Below, piece by piece: positions 39,960 through 49,827 of a stretch of 64,000 nucleotides of DNA; position 1 is the first letter of the stretch, and each line of letters begins with the position of its first letter. Below the pieces are notes generated by a model. That model did not search any database. It saw nothing but the letters and a program-made list of their open reading frames with translations, and was not told the origin of the DNA. Made by a program: the position numbers and the translations under genes. Source of the DNA: the human T2T-CHM13v2.0 reference genome, Homo sapiens; NCBI RefSeq assembly GCF_009914755.1, contig NC_060928.1; one strand, written 5' to 3'.

Positions 39960-41800
39960 GGTCCACAACCCTAATCAACAACGTGCCTATAGTTTCTTAG
40001 AGTTCTTCATTTTATTTGGAAAATAGAAGCAACTGGTAGAGTCCTGCCTCCTTTTCCCATCACCAGCACCATCAGCCTAGCTATATCTGTGCCTATGCAC
40101 TTTATTTACCACCTATGGCAAAGCCTAAACTATCTTCATGTACTTAAAGCCTTGCTGCCATTTGTACACTGTTCCTGCAATTATCCCCCTACAAGTGTGT
40201 GTGCACACACTTATGAATCCCGAGTTTCTCCTTTTCTACAGCATCCTTCCCAATAGCAGGCAAAAGTGTTGTTCTACCTCTTATTTTATATCACGACACT
40301 CTTATATCAATGAAGACCATGTACTCTTCTAATGAGTGTCACATCTTCCACTCCCCCTCAGAGCAGAACTCCTAAATGAGCTGTCCTGACTCATATTCTC
40401 TACTCCTTCACTTGTGTTTCTCTCTTCAGCCAACTCTAGTCCACTGAAATTGTACTTATCAAGGTTGCTAATAATCTCCATTGTGACAAATTCAATGGCC
40501 AGTTCTCTGTCCTTATATTATATTAGAATTTGGCCCAAGCAATTCATTAGTCAATCATGAAAGTATTTTTTTCACTTTGCTTCCCATTTTAGTTTCAGTT
40601 TTTGGTTTTGTTTCTTTGTCTTTGTTTTTTCTGTCTACCTCAAGGCCTATCTCTTGCATCTCTTTCTTACTTCTACATGATCTAGGGACCTAGCCTTTAG
40701 GGCACTCACTGCTTATGTGATTCCATCTGTTCCAGTGATTTGTAAATTTACCAGTGTTTCTACTGTGCTCCAGATTCACTCATTCAACACCCATCTCATG
40801 GGGATGTCTAACAAGAATAGACAGAATAGACAGTTTCAAAATAGGAACTGTTGACTTTCCTTTATAAACCTGTTCCTCTCTTAATTTTTTAAATTTTTTA
40901 TCTCAATAGATAACATGGTCATTCATCAAAATGTTCAGTCCACAAATTTAGGAGTTATTCTTGAATGATAATTTATCATATATTCTCACTAACTCACTCA
41001 ATAAGTGCTGCTGGTGCTGCCTACAGACTTTATACCAAATTCTCTGACTTTCCACTGTGAATCCTGCTACTGTCCTAGTCCACATCTTTGTAGTATGTCA
41101 CTTAGAGTACTGCAATAACCTCCTGCTTCCCCGTTTCCCAGCTTTCATTCTTTCAGCAGCAGCAAGCATGATCTTTTCAAAATGGATACTTTCCTCGGAA
41201 CTCTCAAATAACTTATCACTTTCAAATAGAAACTTATACTCAAAATAATTGAAAACAGGTATGCAAATAAATACTTTTACATGAATGTTCATAGTAGCAC
41301 TATTCAAAATGACCAATAAATAAAAAGAACCCCAAGTCTTTCAACTGATTAATCATTAAAAAGTCATAGTATATACATGCAATGGAATAGTATTTGACCA
41401 TTAAAAGGAATGATACACTGATACCTGCTACAATGTGGATGAACATCGAAAACTAAGTGAAAGAAGTCAGCCACAAAAGGTTGCACGTTGTACGTTTCTT
41501 TTTATATGAAATATCCAGAATGGTTAAATCCATAGATACAGAAAACAAGCCTCCTACCTAGCTTATAAATTTCATTATCTACCACTCTCCATTTACATCT
41601 CCCATTTTAACCACGCTGGTCTCTTTGCTTATTTTTAGTCTCAGCATATTCTAACTTAGTTTATTTATGATTGCTTTTCTATTTGCTTGGATTTCTCCTA
41701 AATCAAATCCTAGAGTGGCCTATTCTAGCATTTCTTTAAAGTAGCGTCTTAAAATATCACCTCTCACAAACACCTTCCCTTCCACTCTATCCAAGTCTAC
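39960..41800 (+). mobile_element. L2 LINE, interrupted by L1 at ~41225-41550
   Basis: ccactgaaattgtacttatcaaggtt, ggatgtctaaca, ttaggagttattcttga, tactgcaataacctcct. Confidence 0.7.
41225..41550 (+). mobile_element. L1MB-type ORF2 end / 3'UTR fragment
   Basis: atgttcatagtagcactattc...caatggaatagtatt...aagtgaaagaagtcag...atccatagatacagaaa. Confidence 0.78.
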
Positions 41801-42439
41801 ACAGACATCTCTAAAAACCATGTAGATTATAAGCAGCATAACTACCCACAAAAACATTTTTAGCATAACTAAAATACATTCAATACAACAAATTTAAAAT
41901 TACCTCAGCAAAGTATATAAATGACACCTGTAACAATAGTTCTGGCTCTGGAGCCCACACTGAATTAGAAAGACAGACAGAGACTGTGCATCAGGAGGAG
42001 AGGGGGAGACCTAGCAGCGGCTGAGAGTGGATAAAATCAGACCCACAAATGAGAATCCCATAGTGATACTGAGAATAGGTCTAAGGAAATATTGAGCACA
42101 GATATAAGAACAGATGAAATAGAAAAGAAGGTGTTTGAAATTATGTGAGACTAAATATAACAGTCTTGGGAAGATATGGTTTCTGGGGCAAATTAGAAGT
42201 GTATGGAAAATTCTTTGGTGGCTCTGTGGCTAAAGGAAAAATAAAAGAATGAAAAGGTTAAAATTAAAGGCCCTACTGAAAAAAAAAAGAGAGTCACTAT
42301 ATCAGAAAACCGTATAATATCAAAATATAAAAACACCCCCAATTAAATAAGTTTTTTTTTCATTAACTACACAAGACAATGTTCATGAAGAAGAAATCTA
42401 TAAAGGCAATAAAATTTTCTCTGACCTTCCACCGGTGGT

Positions 42440-43211
42440 TGCTTGTTTAGGAAAACCTTAGTACCTCAAAATGAACAGAAAATCATTGGCAATACCTATA
42501 CAAATTTATAGAAAGAAAAAAAAACAGACAGCAAAAATTTTCAACTGATGAAATTTCTCTTCCTTCCAAAAGTAAGTAAAAAAACAGCAACCAAGAAACA
42601 ACAACAACAAAAATAAACAAAAAACCCTGTCTTAAATATATTTTTAAAGAATTACCTGGAAATATTAAAAAATTATATTTCTAATCAGTGAAACAAAAAA
42701 TAGCAATGGAGAAAGCATACAAAGATGTGAAATGAAATCTAAAAAGGTCAGAAAAGAGAAGAAAAAGAAAAACAAACTCAGCAGCAAAGCATCAGCCATT
42801 AGGTAGCTACAGAAGAATAGATTCTAATGAGTATTTTATAAATGGCATATAAGTGCCACTGGGGAAGGAAATGAAGAAAATTCAAACAACACAACAGAAA
42901 AAATTATAAAGGTTATAACTGAAGAAAGTTTTTCAGAAATAAGGATCTTCAGCCACATGTTGAAAAGTCACATTTTGGTAATTCTTAAATATGTTCTAGA
43001 AAAATTTTTAGTTCTTAAGGATATTTTAAAAAAAAACCTCTGGACTTTCAGGCAAACAGATCAAATTACTTACAAAGGAAAAAAGAAAATTAGGTTGTCG
43101 TGAGAAATCTTCACAGCAATAGTCAAAATAAAGCAGCAGTAAAGCCTTTTTTAAAAAATGCAAGGAAAGACTATATGAGCTAAGGTACCTTTCTGGCATC
43201 AAGATTATAAA
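42440..43211 (+). repeat. Inverted repeat arm 1 (~772 bp)
   Basis: Reverse complement of 46218-46989, aligned by hand end to end. Confidence 0.97.
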
Positions 43212-43441
43212 GACATAGTTTTAAACTTAAAATTATTTTGTGAATACTATACTCACAAGAGAATGAGTATATCTAACTTAGGGATTATTAAATAAACTTG
43301 ACAAAGGAAGATAGTGAACACTGAATATATTTAATCGTAGATCCCAGGCTAAAACAAAGGTGTTAAAAGGGGTAGAATGATAAATATGTTCTGACAAATT
43401 AGAATTTTGCAGTTCAAACTAATGGATAAAGAAAATAAAAT

Positions 43442-43735
43442 GACCAGGCACAGTGGCTCATGCCTGTAATCCCAGCACTTTGGGAGGCTGGGCCCAGTGG
43501 ATCACTTGAGGTCAGGAGTTGGAGACCATCCTGGCCAACATGGTGAAACCCCATCTCTACTAAAAATACAAAAATTAGCTGGCCATCATGGTGGGCACCT
43601 ATAATCCCAGCTACTCAGGAGACTGAGGCAGGAGAACTGCCCAGGAAGTGGAGGTTGCAGTGAGCCAAGATCGTGCCATTACACTTCAGCCTGGGCAACA
43701 GGGTGAGACTGTCACAAAAAAAAAAAAAAAAAAAA
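43442..43735 (+). mobile_element. AluSx/Sz
   Basis: Dimeric Alu with A-tail; ggatcacttgaggtcaggagtt. Confidence 0.92.
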
Positions 43736-46029
43736 TCCTTGATTTTCATGTAGGTAATAGATGGCAGTCAATTTAAAGCTCAATTAGTAGCCTAAATAAC
43801 GGAAACAATGGACTAAATGGACTAAGAGCTTTGTAAAATCTTAACTTTCTCTCAAAGAGCTGATGGTACTCTCTGCAAAATTCTTCTAAAGTGGCGTAAA
43901 AAATGAGGGTGACTAAATTCTTGGGAGGATTTCTATATTAAAATATTGAAAATTTTACCATAAATTTAGGAATCTGTTGAAATTCTGAGCAAGAAAACCT
44001 ATACTGTATGTGCAAGAACTCTGCTGAAACAGTATGGTAGAGTTGTAAAATGTATAGAAACTTGTATATGCCTTTGCAAATGAAGTAACAGCCTTTGAAG
44101 TCTCCTTAGTTCAAATCCCAATCTATATAGTTGAATTTTCTTTCTTTCTGACTTTCTCTTCCTTTCCTTTTCTTTTTCTTTTCAAAATGAATGTGTTTTT
44201 TAAACTGTTCCTGCAAGTTGTGTCTGTTTGTAAATATGTGGGGTTTTCTTCAGTTTTTTTGTTGTTGCTTGCGTGTTTTGATGGAAGTGGTGTTTGTGTG
44301 TTTTGATGGTAGTAGACATGGCAGTATTGCTGGAGATAGTTGATGTAAATCATCTACTTCCAAATGCATTTTACAATGTGGTATATATCAATTTTTGCTT
44401 TTGTGATCTTTTGCATCGGCCATAGATAGCTGTTTTTCATTTTTTTTGCTTAATGAAGTAAAAAGCAATATAAATAAAATTTCTCCTTCCAAATGAATCT
44501 CATTCAGCTGCGTTCAACTATGAAAGAGCTCTCAAAAAAGACTACTCATTAATTTTCATTTCAAAAATATTTTGTAAAGTGGTTCATAGGCCTTTGTTAA
44601 TGGCTTGCCTAATGTCCTTGGATCACCATATGTTCTCTTCACAAAGTATAGGCCCATAGAGAAATAAATTTCCCTCTTAGTTTTTTAGGTTAGATTGTTG
44701 GAAAAATATCAATAATTCAAATCAGATGATTGTATTTCTAATCAAAATTTTTTGGGATTTTTGATGGCATGAAAACAAAGAAATGTTTTTAACTTTTTTA
44801 CTGCATTGGCAATATATGAATAAAAGAATGGAGATGAGGAAATGAAGGAATCTACTGAATTAACTGCATGATCCTCTCTATACTTTCCCTACTGCAAGAG
44901 AAAACAATATACACATGGCCTTCTAATCACTTGGTTGGTTCCCCTTGAAAGCAGCCCTCAGTAGTTTCTTACTACACTGCTATCACTCTGAACATAAGCT
45001 GGAGACAAAGGGCTGCTTTGTACGGAGTGAAAAATAATCAGGGTCTGGTGAGAGGATAGATAGAAGGATGCTCAACACCAACCTCACCATCAGGAGGAGA
45101 CCACAGTCATTCCTTTTGTAATAAAACATACAAAGCCAGAACCTGAATGGAACGCAAGGACTCTCTTTGGAGAAAAATCTTCCTTATTCTCTTTAATGTA
45201 TGACATTTTCATAATCTTCTTGATTTTCATTTTTCCTTGTGGGGCCAAAATCAGTAATTTGAATTAAATCTCCTATTTATTCTAACATATGTAGTTGAAG
45301 TCCATTTTATCCCCTCTCCCACAATATCTGAATTCAGGAATTTTTTATTGTTGTTTGTTTGTTTGTTTGTGGTCTTTTTGCCCTTAGCAGCTAGAAGTGG
45401 AGACCTTGGTTTCTCTGATTCTATTTCCAAGTATTTCTGGAAGATCAGCATTCTACTCTCTCTTCTAAGACAGTGTTGTCTTATATTAAAATTTATGATT
45501 TTGGTGAGATGCTTAAGCCTTTACCCCAATTCAAGGTGGTGCCCTGATTCTTCAAAGTCCTCCTGCCTTTACTAAGATAGATCTTCTCAAGTGCTTTACC
45601 TTTAGTTTTCCCTAGGGCTCCCTGCTCATTATTTTGGCCTCTTTCTGTCCATAAGTAATGTTAATTATGATAATACTGCTAAGATATTAGTAGGAAGTAT
45701 CAAGGTCCTGTCAACTAACCTTTATTCTACAGTATTTGAAGCAGTCAGATGGAAAGGAGAAGAGTCAAGCCATTAAGTGCCACTTTTGATATGCGTAGTA
45801 GGAGGTTATTCACTTTGGTTTATTTGACAGTAACTTACTTAAAAAAATTTTTTTTATCATTTTAGATTTCTGTTACTGGCTACTAAAGAGTCGATGATAG
45901 ATGATTATATGATACAGTTTCATTCCACCATCTTTACCTACATTTTTCTTTTAAATATTTATATCAATCATTAATATTTTTGAGAGAGATGTGTGTATAC
46001 ATACACATATATATGCATATGTGTATGTG

Positions 46030-47329
46030 TACACAATCATTTGCTGGAATGGCTCACAGAACTTAGGAAAACCGTTTGCTTACTAGATTACGGGTTTATT
46101 GCAAAAGGATACAACTCAGGAACAGCGGAATGGAAGAGCTGCACTGGGGAAGGTACATGGAAAGGGGAGCTGAGCCTCCATGTTCTCTCCAGGCATCCCA
46201 TCCTCCCAGCACTTGCACTTATAATCTTGACGCCAGAAAGGTACCTTAGCACATATAGACTTTCCTTGCATTTTTTAAAAAAGGCTTTACTGCTGCCTTA
46301 TTTTGACTATTGCTGTGAAGATTTCTCACAACAACCTAATTTTCTTTTTTCCTTTGTAAGTAATTGATCTGTTTGCCTGAAACTCCAGAGGATTTTTTTT
46401 AAAATATCCTTAAGAACTAAAAATTTTTCTAGAACATATTTAAGAATTACCAAAATGTGACTTTTCAACATGTGGCTGAAGATCCTTATTTCTGAAAAAC
46501 TTTCTTCAGTTATAACCTTTATAATTTTTTCTGTTGTGTTGTTTGAGTTTTCTTCATTTCCTTCTTCAATGGCACTTATATGCCATTTATAAAATACTCA
46601 TTAGAATCTATTCTTCTGTAGCCACCTAATGGCTGATGCTTTGCTGCTGAGTTTGTTTTTCTTTTTCTTCTCTTTTCTGACCTTTTTAGATTTCATTTCA
46701 CATCTTTGTATGCTTTCTCCATTGCTATTTTTTGTTTCACTGATTAGAAATATAATTTTTTAATATGTCCAGGTAATTTTTTAAAAATATATTTAAGACA
46801 GGTTTTTTTTTTGTTTCTTTTTTGTTGTTGTTTCTTGGTTGCTGTTTTTTTTAATTACTTTTGGAAGGAAGAGAATTTTCATCAGTTGAAAATTTTTGCT
46901 GTCTGTGTTTTTTCTTTCTATAAATTTGTATAGGTATTGCCAATGATTTTCTGTTCATTTTGAGGTACTAAGGTTTTCCTAAACAAGCAGAAGCTCTCAG
47001 AAACTCATCTTTTGGGGGTTTTAGAGAGGCCTCAATACACAGGCCTGATTCATTATATCACCTGCCAGTAGTGATAAAAAAATTCAGGCCATTTCTTCTC
47101 CCCAGAGGTGTTGTGTGGGACACTGGGGTGTCTGAAATTGGTAAAGTTCTAATCACTTGGTTGGTTCCCCTGGAAACCAGCCCCCATGCTTGGGCTTTCC
47201 AGGAGCCCCCAGCCCCCAGCAATCTCATTAGCATATGAAAATAGTTACCATTTCAGAGATTGCAAGAATTTAAAAGCTGTGTGTCAGGAAATGGGAAAAG
47301 AGACCAAACATATTTCTTACCATGTCACA
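46030..47329 (-). mobile_element. MER21C-like LTR, split in two (46030-46217, 46990-47329) by the inverted duplicate
   Basis: ggctcacagaacttaggaaa...ggatacaactcaggaacagc...cctcccagcac | agaagctctc...ctcattagcata...atatttcttaccatgtcaca (reverse complement starts TGTGA, the LTR start). Confidence 0.85.
46218..46989 (-). repeat. Inverted repeat arm 2 (~772 bp), the derived copy
   Basis: Reverse complement of 42440-43211; about 20 substitutions and a few small indels by hand count. Confidence 0.97.
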
Positions 47330-49827
47330 TTGACAATTATTTTGTATATTTAAGTTTCTCAGGCATCACATCGAGATGTATCATGTTCCAAACAAGAAAA
47401 CGGAACACAATAGGAGCTTTGAGACTGGGAGATGGCTTAGTTTTTATCCACCTAAAGTTAATTATAACTTCTGGAGCTGCTTCTGGAGTTAGACATATAT
47501 TGCTATCCAATAGAAAGAACAGCACTGGAATTCTCACTAGCTTGTTTTGTCATTTAAGCTTCCTAAATCGGATCTGCTTCTAGCTTCGGTTTTATAATGT
47601 ACAATGATATGTACTATAGAACATAGACAATACTTAAGTACCTTCCCTTTACCCCATCCCTAAATGAGACCTGAGCCATAGGAATGATGACTAGCACTGA
47701 AATAGTTGGTCACCTGGAAACTCTGTGAACTCTGAAATTTCCCCATATTGTATTATCAGGCTGAAAAAAAAAAAAAAAAAACATGTATAGTGACACCTGT
47801 AAGTGTACTTCAGATAAGAAGAGATTAAGGAGTAATAGTTCCCTGGTGCAGGTTTTACCATTATTCTTCCAATTTTTTCATTCTAGATGAAGGTAAACCA
47901 ATTGGAACACCACTTATTTTTGCACTTCCCTCTTTGCCCTCTCTTCGTTTTGTCTCTCCTTCAAATCAGCAGAGGCAGAAATGTGTTTTTAGTCAAAACT
48001 GCAGATTCACATACACACTCACACACAGACATCCATTTATTCCTTAGCATCACCCCCATATACTATACCTAAGGTCTCTCTTTGTCTACATTTTGATTAT
48101 CCACACCAAAATAAAATCTATGAAAACACCTGTACAACAGAATTAGTCTACTGAGGCCTAGGGCAACGTGGTGTAAATCTACTGTGCATTTGATAGGTGG
48201 TGGTAGCTTATTGCCACATCATGATGGATGATGTGTATCATCCAGAGCTGGACTCTGGAGTTGTCCCTTGTGAACATTAATTAGTAAGGCAAAATGGCTT
48301 GAGTTTTTGGATCAAAAGAGACTGTACTAATAAAAAGAGCAAAGGATACTATAAGGATAAAAAAAAAACCTGTGCTATTAAAATCTCTACAAGTTATGCA
48401 AAAACATAAGAACTGAATGAAATTGCCTTTAAATAGTTGGGTTCTTTGAATTGCTTACCTAAAGTTATTCTTACTATGGAGAAATAAAAACTTACTCTGC
48501 AGAAATGAGAAATTTATTATAGCTGAGCCAGATTATACATATGCATGTGTATACGTGGGAATATATATGACATATATCTATGAATATATATGACATATAT
48601 ATATAAAACATTTATCATTGAACATGACATTGAAATAATTAGAATCTAAAACTCCTTTAATATTTAATATACTGATGGCTTTGCTAAAATTCATATGGGA
48701 TATTTTATGCATAATTACTTACCAGGCAGGATTAATATGAGGATTACTATTTATGTGACAGAAACATTTGTAAACCACCTTGACCTTCTCAAAGAAAGGT
48801 TGCACTAGTGATTACAGAGTAATGTCTGCTTTCCTTTTAATCACAATCTAAGATCAGGTCTTCATTTCACAGTGGTAGAGGAAGTTGACATAACGAAAAA
48901 CATCTAAATAAGTAGGTGGATGATCTCGAGAGATGGTATGGATGATTATTTAAGAGTTTTATAGCCTTCTTTTGTTGGTTGAGTTTTTTTAATCTGTATT
49001 TATTGAGGATAACTTTATGTTTATTGACACCATATGTTAATACTATGTAAACACAGGATGTCTTCATATTTAGTTAATATTCCATGTGCGGAACTTCTCA
49101 AAGATTTCAAATAAGCCTACATACACTATCCATATGTTGCTTTTTAGCAAGGGTGCTAAAAATTGTAAAGATTTTAACTTAGCATGGGGATTTATGTATT
49201 TATATATATATACACACACACACATACATATTTTAGGGGGTTATGTATTAAATACTATTCCTGTATTAGAGGTTCGTGCTTGTCATCAGTCAGTATTTTT
49301 AGTATACATGTATGTATTGCCTTTACTGTCACCACTAATTCATACTTTGTGACTCCCCCTTGCATATATCCTACCTATGTAAATCTGTATTTGCACAAAG
49401 AAGTTACTAGAAATTTTGATTACTTCTTAATCATTCTTAATCAGAATTATTTAACTAATCCACTTTTAATGTTTAAAATTAAAGGATATATATATATCTC
49501 ACATATTCATTTATTTTAATAAACATTATTTGAGGGGCAATTATGAACTAGTATTTTATAAAGCATATTGTAGGATTAGGGAAAGAAGTGGAAGGGAGAA
49601 ATAAAAGATGATAAAATATTGAATAATATTTACCTGGTTCTCCAGAAGATCAAATTTCATGGTAAAGACTGAATCCAAGAGATGTACCTATAAAACAATT
49701 TATATGATAATTGAACAAGCATAAAGTAAGATATTTGAGCACTTTGTGGAGAGAAAGGGAATAAATTAATTCTGCTCATGTGTCAGTTGAAAGGCTTATA
49801 GAAATATGGGTGTTCTACATGCTAAAG

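What the first reader, a model, noticed from the sequence alone, without database searches (positions are those of the whole stretch)
42440..46989. ~772-bp high-identity inverted duplication around a 3-kb spacer
Seen: 46218-46989 is the reverse complement of 42440-43211 over its whole length, with about 20 substitutions and a few homopolymer/CAA indels by hand count (~96-97% identity). Known: the source is an ancient HAL1/L1-ORF1-like relic, and independent insertions of such families are far more diverged from each other. Repeat masking would therefore label both arms as old TE and hide the relationship. Inference: a local, relatively recent (probably ape-era) duplication, not two transposition events.
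Basis: partly seen in the sequence, partly recalled or inferred. Interest (0 to 1): 0.8.

Follow-up and report, generated by a model that had tools for sequence, protein, structure and literature searches.

The report
Local inverted copy inside GRID2 intron
A 772-base piece of an ancient LINE-1 relic in an intron of the human GRID2 gene was copied backwards into a spot 3 kb away, apparently by a DNA copying or repair slip and not by transposition; this is a real but fairly ordinary kind of small genome rearrangement.

Summary
42440-43212 (+) and 46218-46989 (-) align at 96.6% identity (20-22 substitutions, 4-6 gap columns). They are the only pair in the window with at least 88% identity over 80 bases or more. 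They are also the only two high-identity copies found in the whole T2T genome.

- **Arm 2 is the derived copy.** Its two flanks are halves of one old interspersed repeat, adjacent in 7 of 9 paralogues, with about 13-14 host bases missing at the insertion point. There is no target-site duplication, no poly(A), and only 1-2 bases of possible microhomology.
- **Arm 1 is the source.** It lies inside an L1 ORF1p-like relic whose homology runs 47-147 bases past the arm's end.
- **The spacer was not inverted.**

The most likely mechanism is a DNA-templated inverted insertion, by replication template switch or break repair. The clock age is about 12-15 My (range 7-29). It was not tested in other primates, because no primate genomes were available.

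In GRID2 pre-mRNA the arms could form a roughly 750-bp, 97%-paired hairpin. That consequence is untested. Interest is low to moderate.

The parts
42440..43212 (+). Arm 1, the source copy: an internal piece of an old L1 ORF1-like relic, A-rich on the + strand
   Evidence: alignment; relic homology to paralogues continues past 43212 to 43259-43359, so the arm boundary lies inside the relic.
46218..46989 (-). Arm 2, the derived inverted copy, inserted into an older interspersed repeat
   Evidence: both flanks belong to one host repeat, adjacent in 7 of 9 paralogue loci. About 13-14 host bases are missing. There is no TSD and no poly(A).
43213..46217 (.). 3.0-kb spacer, in its original orientation. 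Mostly single-copy or very old sequence, plus one Alu.
   Evidence: few genome-wide matches. Collinearity at both ends: the relic continues at 43213+, and the host repeat is collinear across arm 2.
43029..43359 (+). L1 ORF1p C-terminal-domain-like relic that straddles the right end of arm 1
   Evidence: protein search: chr12 E 8.6e-7; chr6 E 2.2e-4. (the chr12 paralogue L020 hits PF17490 at 25.1 bits against a 22.2 cut-off). (BLASTP E 4e-12 and 2e-8, running to window nt 43259 and 43274). (blastn L022 43015-43335; L020 43255-43359).
43441..43736 (+). Alu in the spacer, not part of the duplication
   Evidence: 70-81% matches to other Alu-like copies in the window. (sub-threshold 7SL/SRP match at 43443-43554).
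46036..46217 (.). Host interspersed repeat, the half on the spacer side of arm 2 (MaLR/MLT1-like by recall only)
   Evidence: query 45-233 matches many loci at 74-83%..
46990..47260 (.). Host interspersed repeat, the half on the outer side of arm 2
   Evidence: query 999-1271 matches the same loci..
45992..46035 (.). Self-complementary TG/CA-AT microsatellite next to the host repeat, about 183 bases from the insertion point. A possible fork-stalling structure (inference only).
   Evidence: 44 nt, 86% self-complementary. (sub-threshold hits to TG/CA-hairpin miRNA families).

Best explanation
A 772-base internal piece of an ancient L1 ORF1-like relic (arm 1, 42440-43212) served as DNA template for an inverted copy (arm 2, 46218-46989). 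The copy was written into a site about 3 kb downstream, inside an older interspersed repeat, and replaced about 13-14 bases of that repeat. The junctions carry no transposition marks. The most likely process is a copying error of the DNA machinery. Either a nascent strand left its template at about 46217, copied the opposite strand from 43212 back to 42440, and returned about 14 bases further on (a kilobase-scale template switch, order 3-2-1-4 in the four-point notation; FoSTeS/MMBIR-like). Or a double-strand break at that site was repaired by synthesis primed on the nearby sequence and then end-joined. These two variants cannot be told apart from sequence. Shown: which arm is derived, the junction anatomy, the uniqueness of the pair, and the unchanged spacer orientation. 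Inferred: the enzymology, and the age of about 12-15 My from 2.9% divergence. As a consequence, the GRID2 pre-mRNA (+ strand) carries two arms able to form a roughly 750-bp, 97%-paired hairpin with a 3-kb loop.
For: Pair and uniqueness: for the window. for the whole genome, where the first look found 3 candidates: the two arms and one 74-base, 81% low-complexity match. Arm 2 is an insertion: 9 paralogue loci of the flanking repeat were examined. In 7 (L007, L008, L009, L010, L011, L012, L013) both flanks match on one strand, 10-39 subject bases apart. In 1 (L006) they lie about 1.2 kb apart. In 1 (L015) only one flank matches. In L007, L009, L010, L011 and L012 about 13-14 subject bases have no counterpart in the window. 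Junctions read directly: no duplication of target bases, no A-tail at either end, no TTTT/A-like target, and only 'CA' and perhaps 'C' shared between host and source. Arm 1 is original: relic homology continues past 43212 to 43259 (L020), 43274 (L021), 43335 (L022) and 43359 (L020). Published frames: the template-switch four-point model, in which pattern 3-2-1-4 gives a single inverted repeat (PMC7954356, passages read). MMBIR (PMC2621351, search listing and abstract only). Insertions without TSD or poly(A) but with microdeletion and microhomology are read as break repair (PMC5110952, passages read).
Against: No outgroup or second human haplotype was available, so the empty site is inferred from paralogues of the host repeat, not from an orthologue. 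The left boundary of arm 1 (42440) could not be shown to lie inside the relic, because no collinear paralogue match crosses it. Microhomology of 1-2 bases is weak and is judged against diverged paralogues. Published short-range template switches span tens to hundreds of bases, whereas this event copied 772 bases from 3 kb away. A fork-internal switch is therefore less natural than strand invasion. An RNA-templated patch cannot be excluded.
Confidence: 0.78

Rival explanations
1. RNA-templated patch. A piece of GRID2 intron RNA, or of an antisense transcript, containing arm 1 was reverse-transcribed and captured at a double-strand break. This would be an endonuclease-independent, class-2 'templated sequence insertion'.
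For: The junction features match class 2 TSIPs as described in PMC5110952: no TSD, no poly(A), a microdeletion and microhomology. Arm 1 lies in a transcribed intron (hub annotation).
Against: In that work the donors were distant, not nearby (passage). Here the donor is 3 kb away on the same molecule, which favours a proximity-driven DNA-templated event. Nothing in the sequence marks an RNA intermediate.
Confidence: 0.1
2. The duplication is much older than its 2.9% divergence suggests, and the arms have been kept alike by gene conversion between the inverted copies.
For: Inverted repeats a few kb apart can convert each other (general knowledge). There are exact blocks of 154 and 82 bases.
Against: Differences are spread over the whole arm with no long converted tract standing out. 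An 82-base clean end is not unusual at 1 difference per about 35 bases. This rival changes only the age, not the origin.
Confidence: 0.12
3. Two independent insertions of one repeat family, or the terminal inverted repeats of a single foldback or DNA-transposon unit.
For: The arm content is transposon-derived.
Against: Only two high-identity copies were found genome-wide, and other relatives are about 59-66% identical. Both arms share the same internal breakpoints. Arm 2 alone interrupts the host repeat, so the arm-spacer-arm unit was not inserted as a whole. No TSD or poly(A) is present.
Confidence: 0.02
4. An inversion with staggered breaks that left inverted duplications at its ends, or an assembly artefact.
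For: Inverted duplications can flank inversions. Fold-back chimeras occur in long-read data (both general knowledge).
Against: The host repeat is collinear across arm 2, and the L1 relic is collinear across the right end of arm 1, so the spacer is not inverted. An artefact would give near-identical arms. These arms differ by 22 substitutions and several indels and have clean junctions with a target microdeletion.
Confidence: 0.03

Closest known systems
Template-switch mutations (four-point model, pattern 3-2-1-4; Loytynoja & Goldman; Walker et al. 2021, PMC7954356) and FoSTeS/MMBIR (Hastings et al. 2009, PMC2621351)
   Same: A reverse-complement copy of nearby sequence is written into the nascent strand. 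This creates a single inverted repeat, with little or no homology at the switch points and a small loss at the return point.
   Different: The published short-range events span tens to hundreds of bases within one fork. This one copied 772 bases from a template 3-4.5 kb away. FoSTeS/MMBIR is usually invoked for kb-to-Mb pathogenic CNVs, not for a fixed sub-kb insertion.
Class 2 templated sequence insertions (TSI/TSIP; Onozawa et al., reviewed in PMC5110952)
   Same: An insertion without TSD or poly(A), with a microdeletion and microhomology at the junctions. This is read as the patch repair of a double-strand break.
   Different: Those patches come from distant loci and are thought to be RNA-derived. 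Here the donor is local, and no RNA mark is visible.
Segmental duplications and inverted-repeat catalogues of the human genome
   Same: A high-identity (96.6%) intrachromosomal paralogous pair in inverted orientation.
   Different: At 772 bases it falls under the customary 1-kb limit for segmental duplications (limit recalled, not from a call), so it would not be in those tracks. It is far smaller than the large X/Y palindromes.
Long, highly paired intramolecular dsRNAs (dsRNAscan preprint, PMC11838218)
   Same: It meets that paper's cut-offs of >300 bp and >96% paired: 751 of 772 nt paired (97.3%), with a span of 4.55 kb inside the paper's 10-kb scanning window. Like most of its 2,018 cases, it is formed by inverted LINE-derived sequence.
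   Different: It lies in a gene intron, whereas 88% of that class is intergenic. Whether this locus is in the paper's Table S5 could not be checked, because the table is not in the held supplement.

Membership tests
L1-mediated retrotransposition / class 1 TSIP | Target-site duplication of at least 5 bases at both junctions | tested here: not met
   Junctions were read. There is no duplicated target; instead about 13-14 host bases are missing.
L1-mediated retrotransposition / class 1 TSIP | Poly(A) tail at the 3' end of the insert and a TTTT/A-like target | tested here: not met
   The arm ends read ...GATTATAAG and TGCTTGTTTAGG..., and the host site reads ...CACTTGCA / CAGAAGCTC. No A-tail is present on either strand.
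Break-repair templated insertion (class 2 TSIP) | No TSD or poly(A); microdeletion and microhomology at the junctions | tested here: met
   Definition taken from PMC5110952.
Break-repair templated insertion (class 2 TSIP) | Donor at a distant locus, copied through RNA | tested here: not met
   The donor is 3 kb away on the same strand of DNA. An RNA intermediate is not testable here.
Template switch, four-point model | Reverse-complement copy of nearby ancestral sequence, with switch-point order giving one inverted repeat (3-2-1-4) | tested here: met
   The order 42440 (3) < 43212 (2) < 46217 (1) < 46990 (4) follows. The pattern is described in PMC7954356.
Template switch, four-point model | Short range (tens to hundreds of bases, within one fork) | tested here: not met
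   772 bases were copied from 3.0-4.5 kb away.
Segmental duplication (customary definition, recalled) | At least 1 kb long and at least 90% identical | tested here: not met
   Identity is 96.6%, but the length is only 772 bases.
DNA transposon or foldback element with long terminal inverted repeats | The arm-spacer-arm unit is inserted as one piece, with flanks contiguous outside both arms | tested here: not met
   Arm 2 alone splits the host repeat, and its inner flank (46036-46217) is part of the spacer. No other copy of the unit was found in the genome.
L1 ORF1p (Pfam PF17490 Tnp_22_dsRBD / PF02994) relic, as content of the arm | Direct match of the window's translation to the Pfam model | tested here: not met
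   0 families at E<=1 for three frames of 41900-43452, and 0 at E<=10 for 42900-43301. 0 PDB chains were found (one search used the wrong frame).
L1 ORF1p (Pfam PF17490 Tnp_22_dsRBD / PF02994) relic, as content of the arm | Homology by way of a less decayed paralogue | tested here: met
   The window matches L020 at E 8.6e-7 and 4e-12. L020 matches PF17490 at 25.1 bits against a 22.2 cut-off, E 1.9e-5. L021 scores 19.4 bits, below the cut-off.
HAL1 specifically | Match to the HAL1 consensus rather than to L1M or other old L1 families | not testable with these tools
   No repeat-family library (Dfam/Repbase) is on hand.

The most novel reading that the evidence does not exclude
The inverted pair is more than a scar. 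In GRID2 pre-mRNA it forms one of the rare long (about 750 bp), >96%-paired intragenic hairpins. Such a hairpin would be heavily A-to-I edited in cerebellar neurons and could affect intron processing, feed small-RNA pathways, or act as an innate-immune ligand when the intron is retained or ADAR1 is lacking. At DNA level, the 772-base arms (longest exact block 154 bases) could mediate a recurrent inversion of the 3-kb spacer, or fork stalling, in a gene whose large introns are described as fragile in mouse.
Probability: 0.07. Interest if true: 0.55.

Novelty: new member of a known kind. Interest (0 to 1): 0.25.

Why it matters
This is a clean, fully resolved example of a sub-kilobase inverted templated insertion in the human germline. 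The donor, the recipient, the roughly 13-14-base target loss and the near-absence of homology at the junctions are all readable. Events of this size fall between the short template switches that are catalogued (tens to hundreds of bases) and the segmental duplications that are catalogued (1 kb and more), so they are easily missed. They also create long near-perfect inverted repeats inside genes. Taken alone it is an ordinary neutral rearrangement in a 1.5-Mb gene. Its value lies in being a worked case, and in being a candidate long intronic dsRNA in a neuronal gene.

Tried and rejected
- **Pfam on the window.** Scans of the window's own translation with stops read as X gave no family. One search failed because of the stop codons and was re-sent with X.
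- **PDB sequence search.** The ORF1-like frame found nothing. One search was run in the wrong frame.
- **Left boundary of arm 1.** tblastx and sensitive blastn against 7 paralogue loci gave no collinear match crossing 42440, so that boundary could not be placed inside the relic.
- **MAFFT across arm 2.** The alignment of host-repeat paralogues misplaced the junction bases, so the junction was read from the raw paralogue sequences and the BLAST coordinates instead. The fuzzy motif search hit the wrong place or nothing in 4 of 8 rows.
- **Rfam.** Nothing reached a gathering score in 41500-48000.
- **dsRNAscan Table S5.** Not in the held supplement, so it is unknown whether this hairpin is already listed there.
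- **Rejected readings.** Two independent insertions, a foldback transposon, an inversion with staggered breaks and an assembly artefact (see the rival explanations).
Full report
**1. The observation**

The repeat finder on 41000-48500 returns a collinear series of inverted pairs that together cover 42440-43210 and 46219-46989. blastn of that stretch against the whole window gives a single minus-strand alignment: 96.6% identity over 773 columns, with 22 mismatches and 4 gap openings. A global alignment with 30-base flanks counts 748 matches, 22 mismatches (11 transitions, 11 transversions) and 6 gap columns. The last two mismatch columns (43211-43212) are an ambiguous end. If one A of a homopolymer is allowed as an indel, the arms are 42440-43212 and 46218-46989. 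The gaps lie in A-runs and a CAA-rich stretch. Seven of the 22 mismatches and 4 of the 6 gap columns fall in the low-complexity part 42576-42661. Megablast of the whole 64-kb window against itself finds no other pair with at least 88% identity over 80 bases or more.

**2. Copy number in the genome**

Arm 1 was searched against the window's own assembly (3.1 Gb, 24 contigs). It finds itself, arm 2 at 97%, and one 74-base, 81% low-complexity match on contig 1. The first look gave 3 candidates and all 3 were scored. The same holds with 740 and 230 bases of flank added. The tool warns that it skips very common words and that counts are lower bounds. However, any copy above 95% identity would share the words that found arm 2. 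So this is not a young repeat family.

**3. Which arm is the copy**

I searched the genome with 45990-47260, that is arm 2 with its flanks. The two flanks (query 45-233 and 999-1271) match many loci at 71-83% identity, from 638 first-look candidates of which 40 were scored. Several loci hold both flanks side by side.

I re-aligned 9 of the fetched loci: L006-L013 and L015. L014 overlaps L009 and was left out. The results were:

| Outcome | Loci | Count |
|---|---|---|
| Both flanks match on one strand, 10-39 bases apart | L007, L008, L009, L010, L011, L012, L013 | 7 of 9 |
| Both flanks match, about 1.2 kb apart | L006 | 1 of 9 |
| Only one flank matches | L015 | 1 of 9 |

So the flanks of arm 2 are the two halves of one old interspersed repeat, and arm 2 is an insertion into it. 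I recall the host sequence as MaLR/MLT1-like, but no call tested that. In L007, L009, L010, L011 and L012, about 13-14 paralogue bases between the two flank alignments have no counterpart in the window. About that much of the host was therefore lost at the insertion.

The junctions, read directly, show:
- no duplicated target bases;
- no A-tail on either strand;
- no TTTT/A-like target;
- at most 'CA' at one junction and 'C' at the other shared between host and source.

**4. Arm 1 is embedded in a longer relic**

The + strand frame through 42900-43301, with stops read as X, was searched as protein against the genome. It finds old paralogues on contig 12 (E 8.6e-7, query residues 45-121) and contig 6 (E 2.2e-4, residues 39-124; E 0.026, residues 23-121), plus weaker ones. 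Arm 1 ends at query residue 104.

The contig-12 paralogue (L020) scores 25.1 bits against Pfam PF17490, the L1 ORF1p C-terminal dsRBD-like domain, where the cut-off is 22.2 (E 1.9e-5). L021 scores 19.4 bits, below the cut-off. L025, L022 and the window itself give no L1 hit. Earlier, three frames of 41900-43452 gave no Pfam family at E<=1, and PDB sequence searches gave nothing (one search was in the wrong frame).

Pairwise BLASTP of window against L020 (E 4e-12) and against L021 (E 2e-8) runs to window nucleotides 43259 and 43274. Sensitive blastn runs to 43335 (L022, E 1e-12) and 43359 (L020, beyond an Alu-like insert in that locus).

The L1 ORF1-like identity of the arm is thus supported by transitive homology. 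The relic continues 47-147 bases beyond the right end of arm 1, and those bases are not in arm 2. Arm 1 is therefore the original. The duplication breakpoint lies inside the relic. The left end (42440) could not be placed in the same way. HAL1 versus other old L1 families cannot be decided without a repeat library.

**5. The spacer**

It holds an Alu at 43441-43736 and otherwise sequence with few genomic matches. The host repeat is collinear across arm 2, and the L1 relic is collinear across the right end of arm 1. The spacer therefore has its original orientation. This excludes an inversion with staggered breaks. It also excludes insertion of the arm-spacer-arm unit as a foldback element.

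**6. Mechanism**

The anatomy is as follows:
- an inverted copy of nearby DNA;
- a microdeletion at the target;
- 0-2 bases of microhomology;
- no transposition marks.

This is what is expected of a templated insertion made by the replication or repair machinery.

In the four-point notation of template switching, the points lie in the order 3 (42440) < 2 (43212) < 1 (46217) < 4 (46990). This is the 3-2-1-4 pattern, which the authors say gives a single inverted repeat (PMC7954356, passages read). However, their events are short-range, tens to hundreds of bases. A copy of 772 bases from 3-4.5 kb away fits strand invasion (MMBIR-like; PMC2621351, seen only as listing and abstract), or synthesis-dependent repair of a break followed by end joining, better than a slip within one fork.

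The junctions also fit class 2 templated sequence insertions, which are read as break repair with an RNA-derived patch from a distant locus (PMC5110952, passages read). The local donor argues for DNA proximity, but an RNA template cannot be excluded.

A self-complementary TG/CA-AT microsatellite lies about 183 bases from the insertion point. That it stalled a fork there is only a thought. GRID2's large introns are described as fragile in mouse (PMC4146306, passages read), which fits a replication-stress origin but proves nothing.

**7. Age**

The K2P distance is 0.029 with a standard error of about 0.006. With substitution rates of 1.0-1.2e-9 per site per year (recalled) the age is 12-15 My. 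With 2.2e-9 or 0.5e-9 it is 6.6 or 29 My. No primate genome is reachable with these tools, and gene conversion between the arms would bias the estimate downward.

**8. Consequence**

GRID2 is transcribed from the + strand and the window holds no exon (hub annotation), so both arms lie in one intron of the pre-mRNA. RNA duplex folding of the two arms gives -1188.9 kcal/mol, with 751 of 772 nucleotides paired on each side (97.3%) and a longest uninterrupted helix of 176 bp.

A preprint that scanned the human genome in 10-kb windows found 2,018 predicted dsRNAs longer than 300 bp and more than 96% paired. Most of them lie between inverted LINE elements, and 88% are intergenic (PMC11838218, section 10 and methods passages read). 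This locus meets those cut-offs and lies in a gene. Whether it is in their list could not be checked. No Rfam family reaches its gathering score in 41500-48000. Editing, small-RNA production and any effect on GRID2 are untested.

At DNA level the longest exact block between the arms is 154 bases. Recombination between the arms, which would invert the spacer, is conceivable but was not shown.

**9. Verdict**

This is a real, unique, local inverted duplication. Arm 2 is a DNA-templated (less likely RNA-templated) insertion copied from arm 1. It is a known kind of event at an under-catalogued size. It is clean and instructive but not surprising.

Noticed in passing
window 45992-46035: A 44-base self-complementary TG/CA-AT microsatellite (86% to its own reverse complement) lies directly beside the host repeat, about 183 bases from the arm-2 insertion point. 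It gives sub-threshold Rfam hits to TG/CA-hairpin miRNA families: mir-297, mir-466, mir-3149 and mir-1277, all far below gathering.
   Followed up: partly
window 44918-44960 and 47147-47186: A 40-base direct match at 92.5% links the spacer to the outer half of the host repeat. The same spot also matches the host-repeat paralogue on contig 3. It is probably a fragment of a second copy of that repeat family in the spacer.
   Followed up: partly
window 42440-43212 vs 46218-46989: The differences between the arms are 11 transitions to 11 transversions, a lower transition share than the usual roughly 2:1 (recalled). The numbers are small. Seven of the 22 mismatches and 4 of the 6 gap columns sit in the A/CAA-rich 42576-42661.
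   Followed up: no
window 41235-41546: A 63%-identical, 336-column match (E 3e-22) to locus L023 (contig 4, near 2.18 Mb) lies upstream of the arm. It shows another old interspersed repeat there. It is not clearly collinear with the ORF1-like match in the same locus.
   Followed up: no
window 44411-44444: A weak match to the Rfam XIST A-repeat model (25.5 bits, gathering 33, E 0.003) lies in the spacer. It is most likely chance.
   Followed up: no
whole window: No two Alu-like copies in the 64-kb window reach 88% identity over 80 bases. The Alu-like matches to the spacer Alu are 70-81% identical, so the window holds only fairly old SINE copies, and the 96.6% pair stands out sharply.
   Followed up: partly
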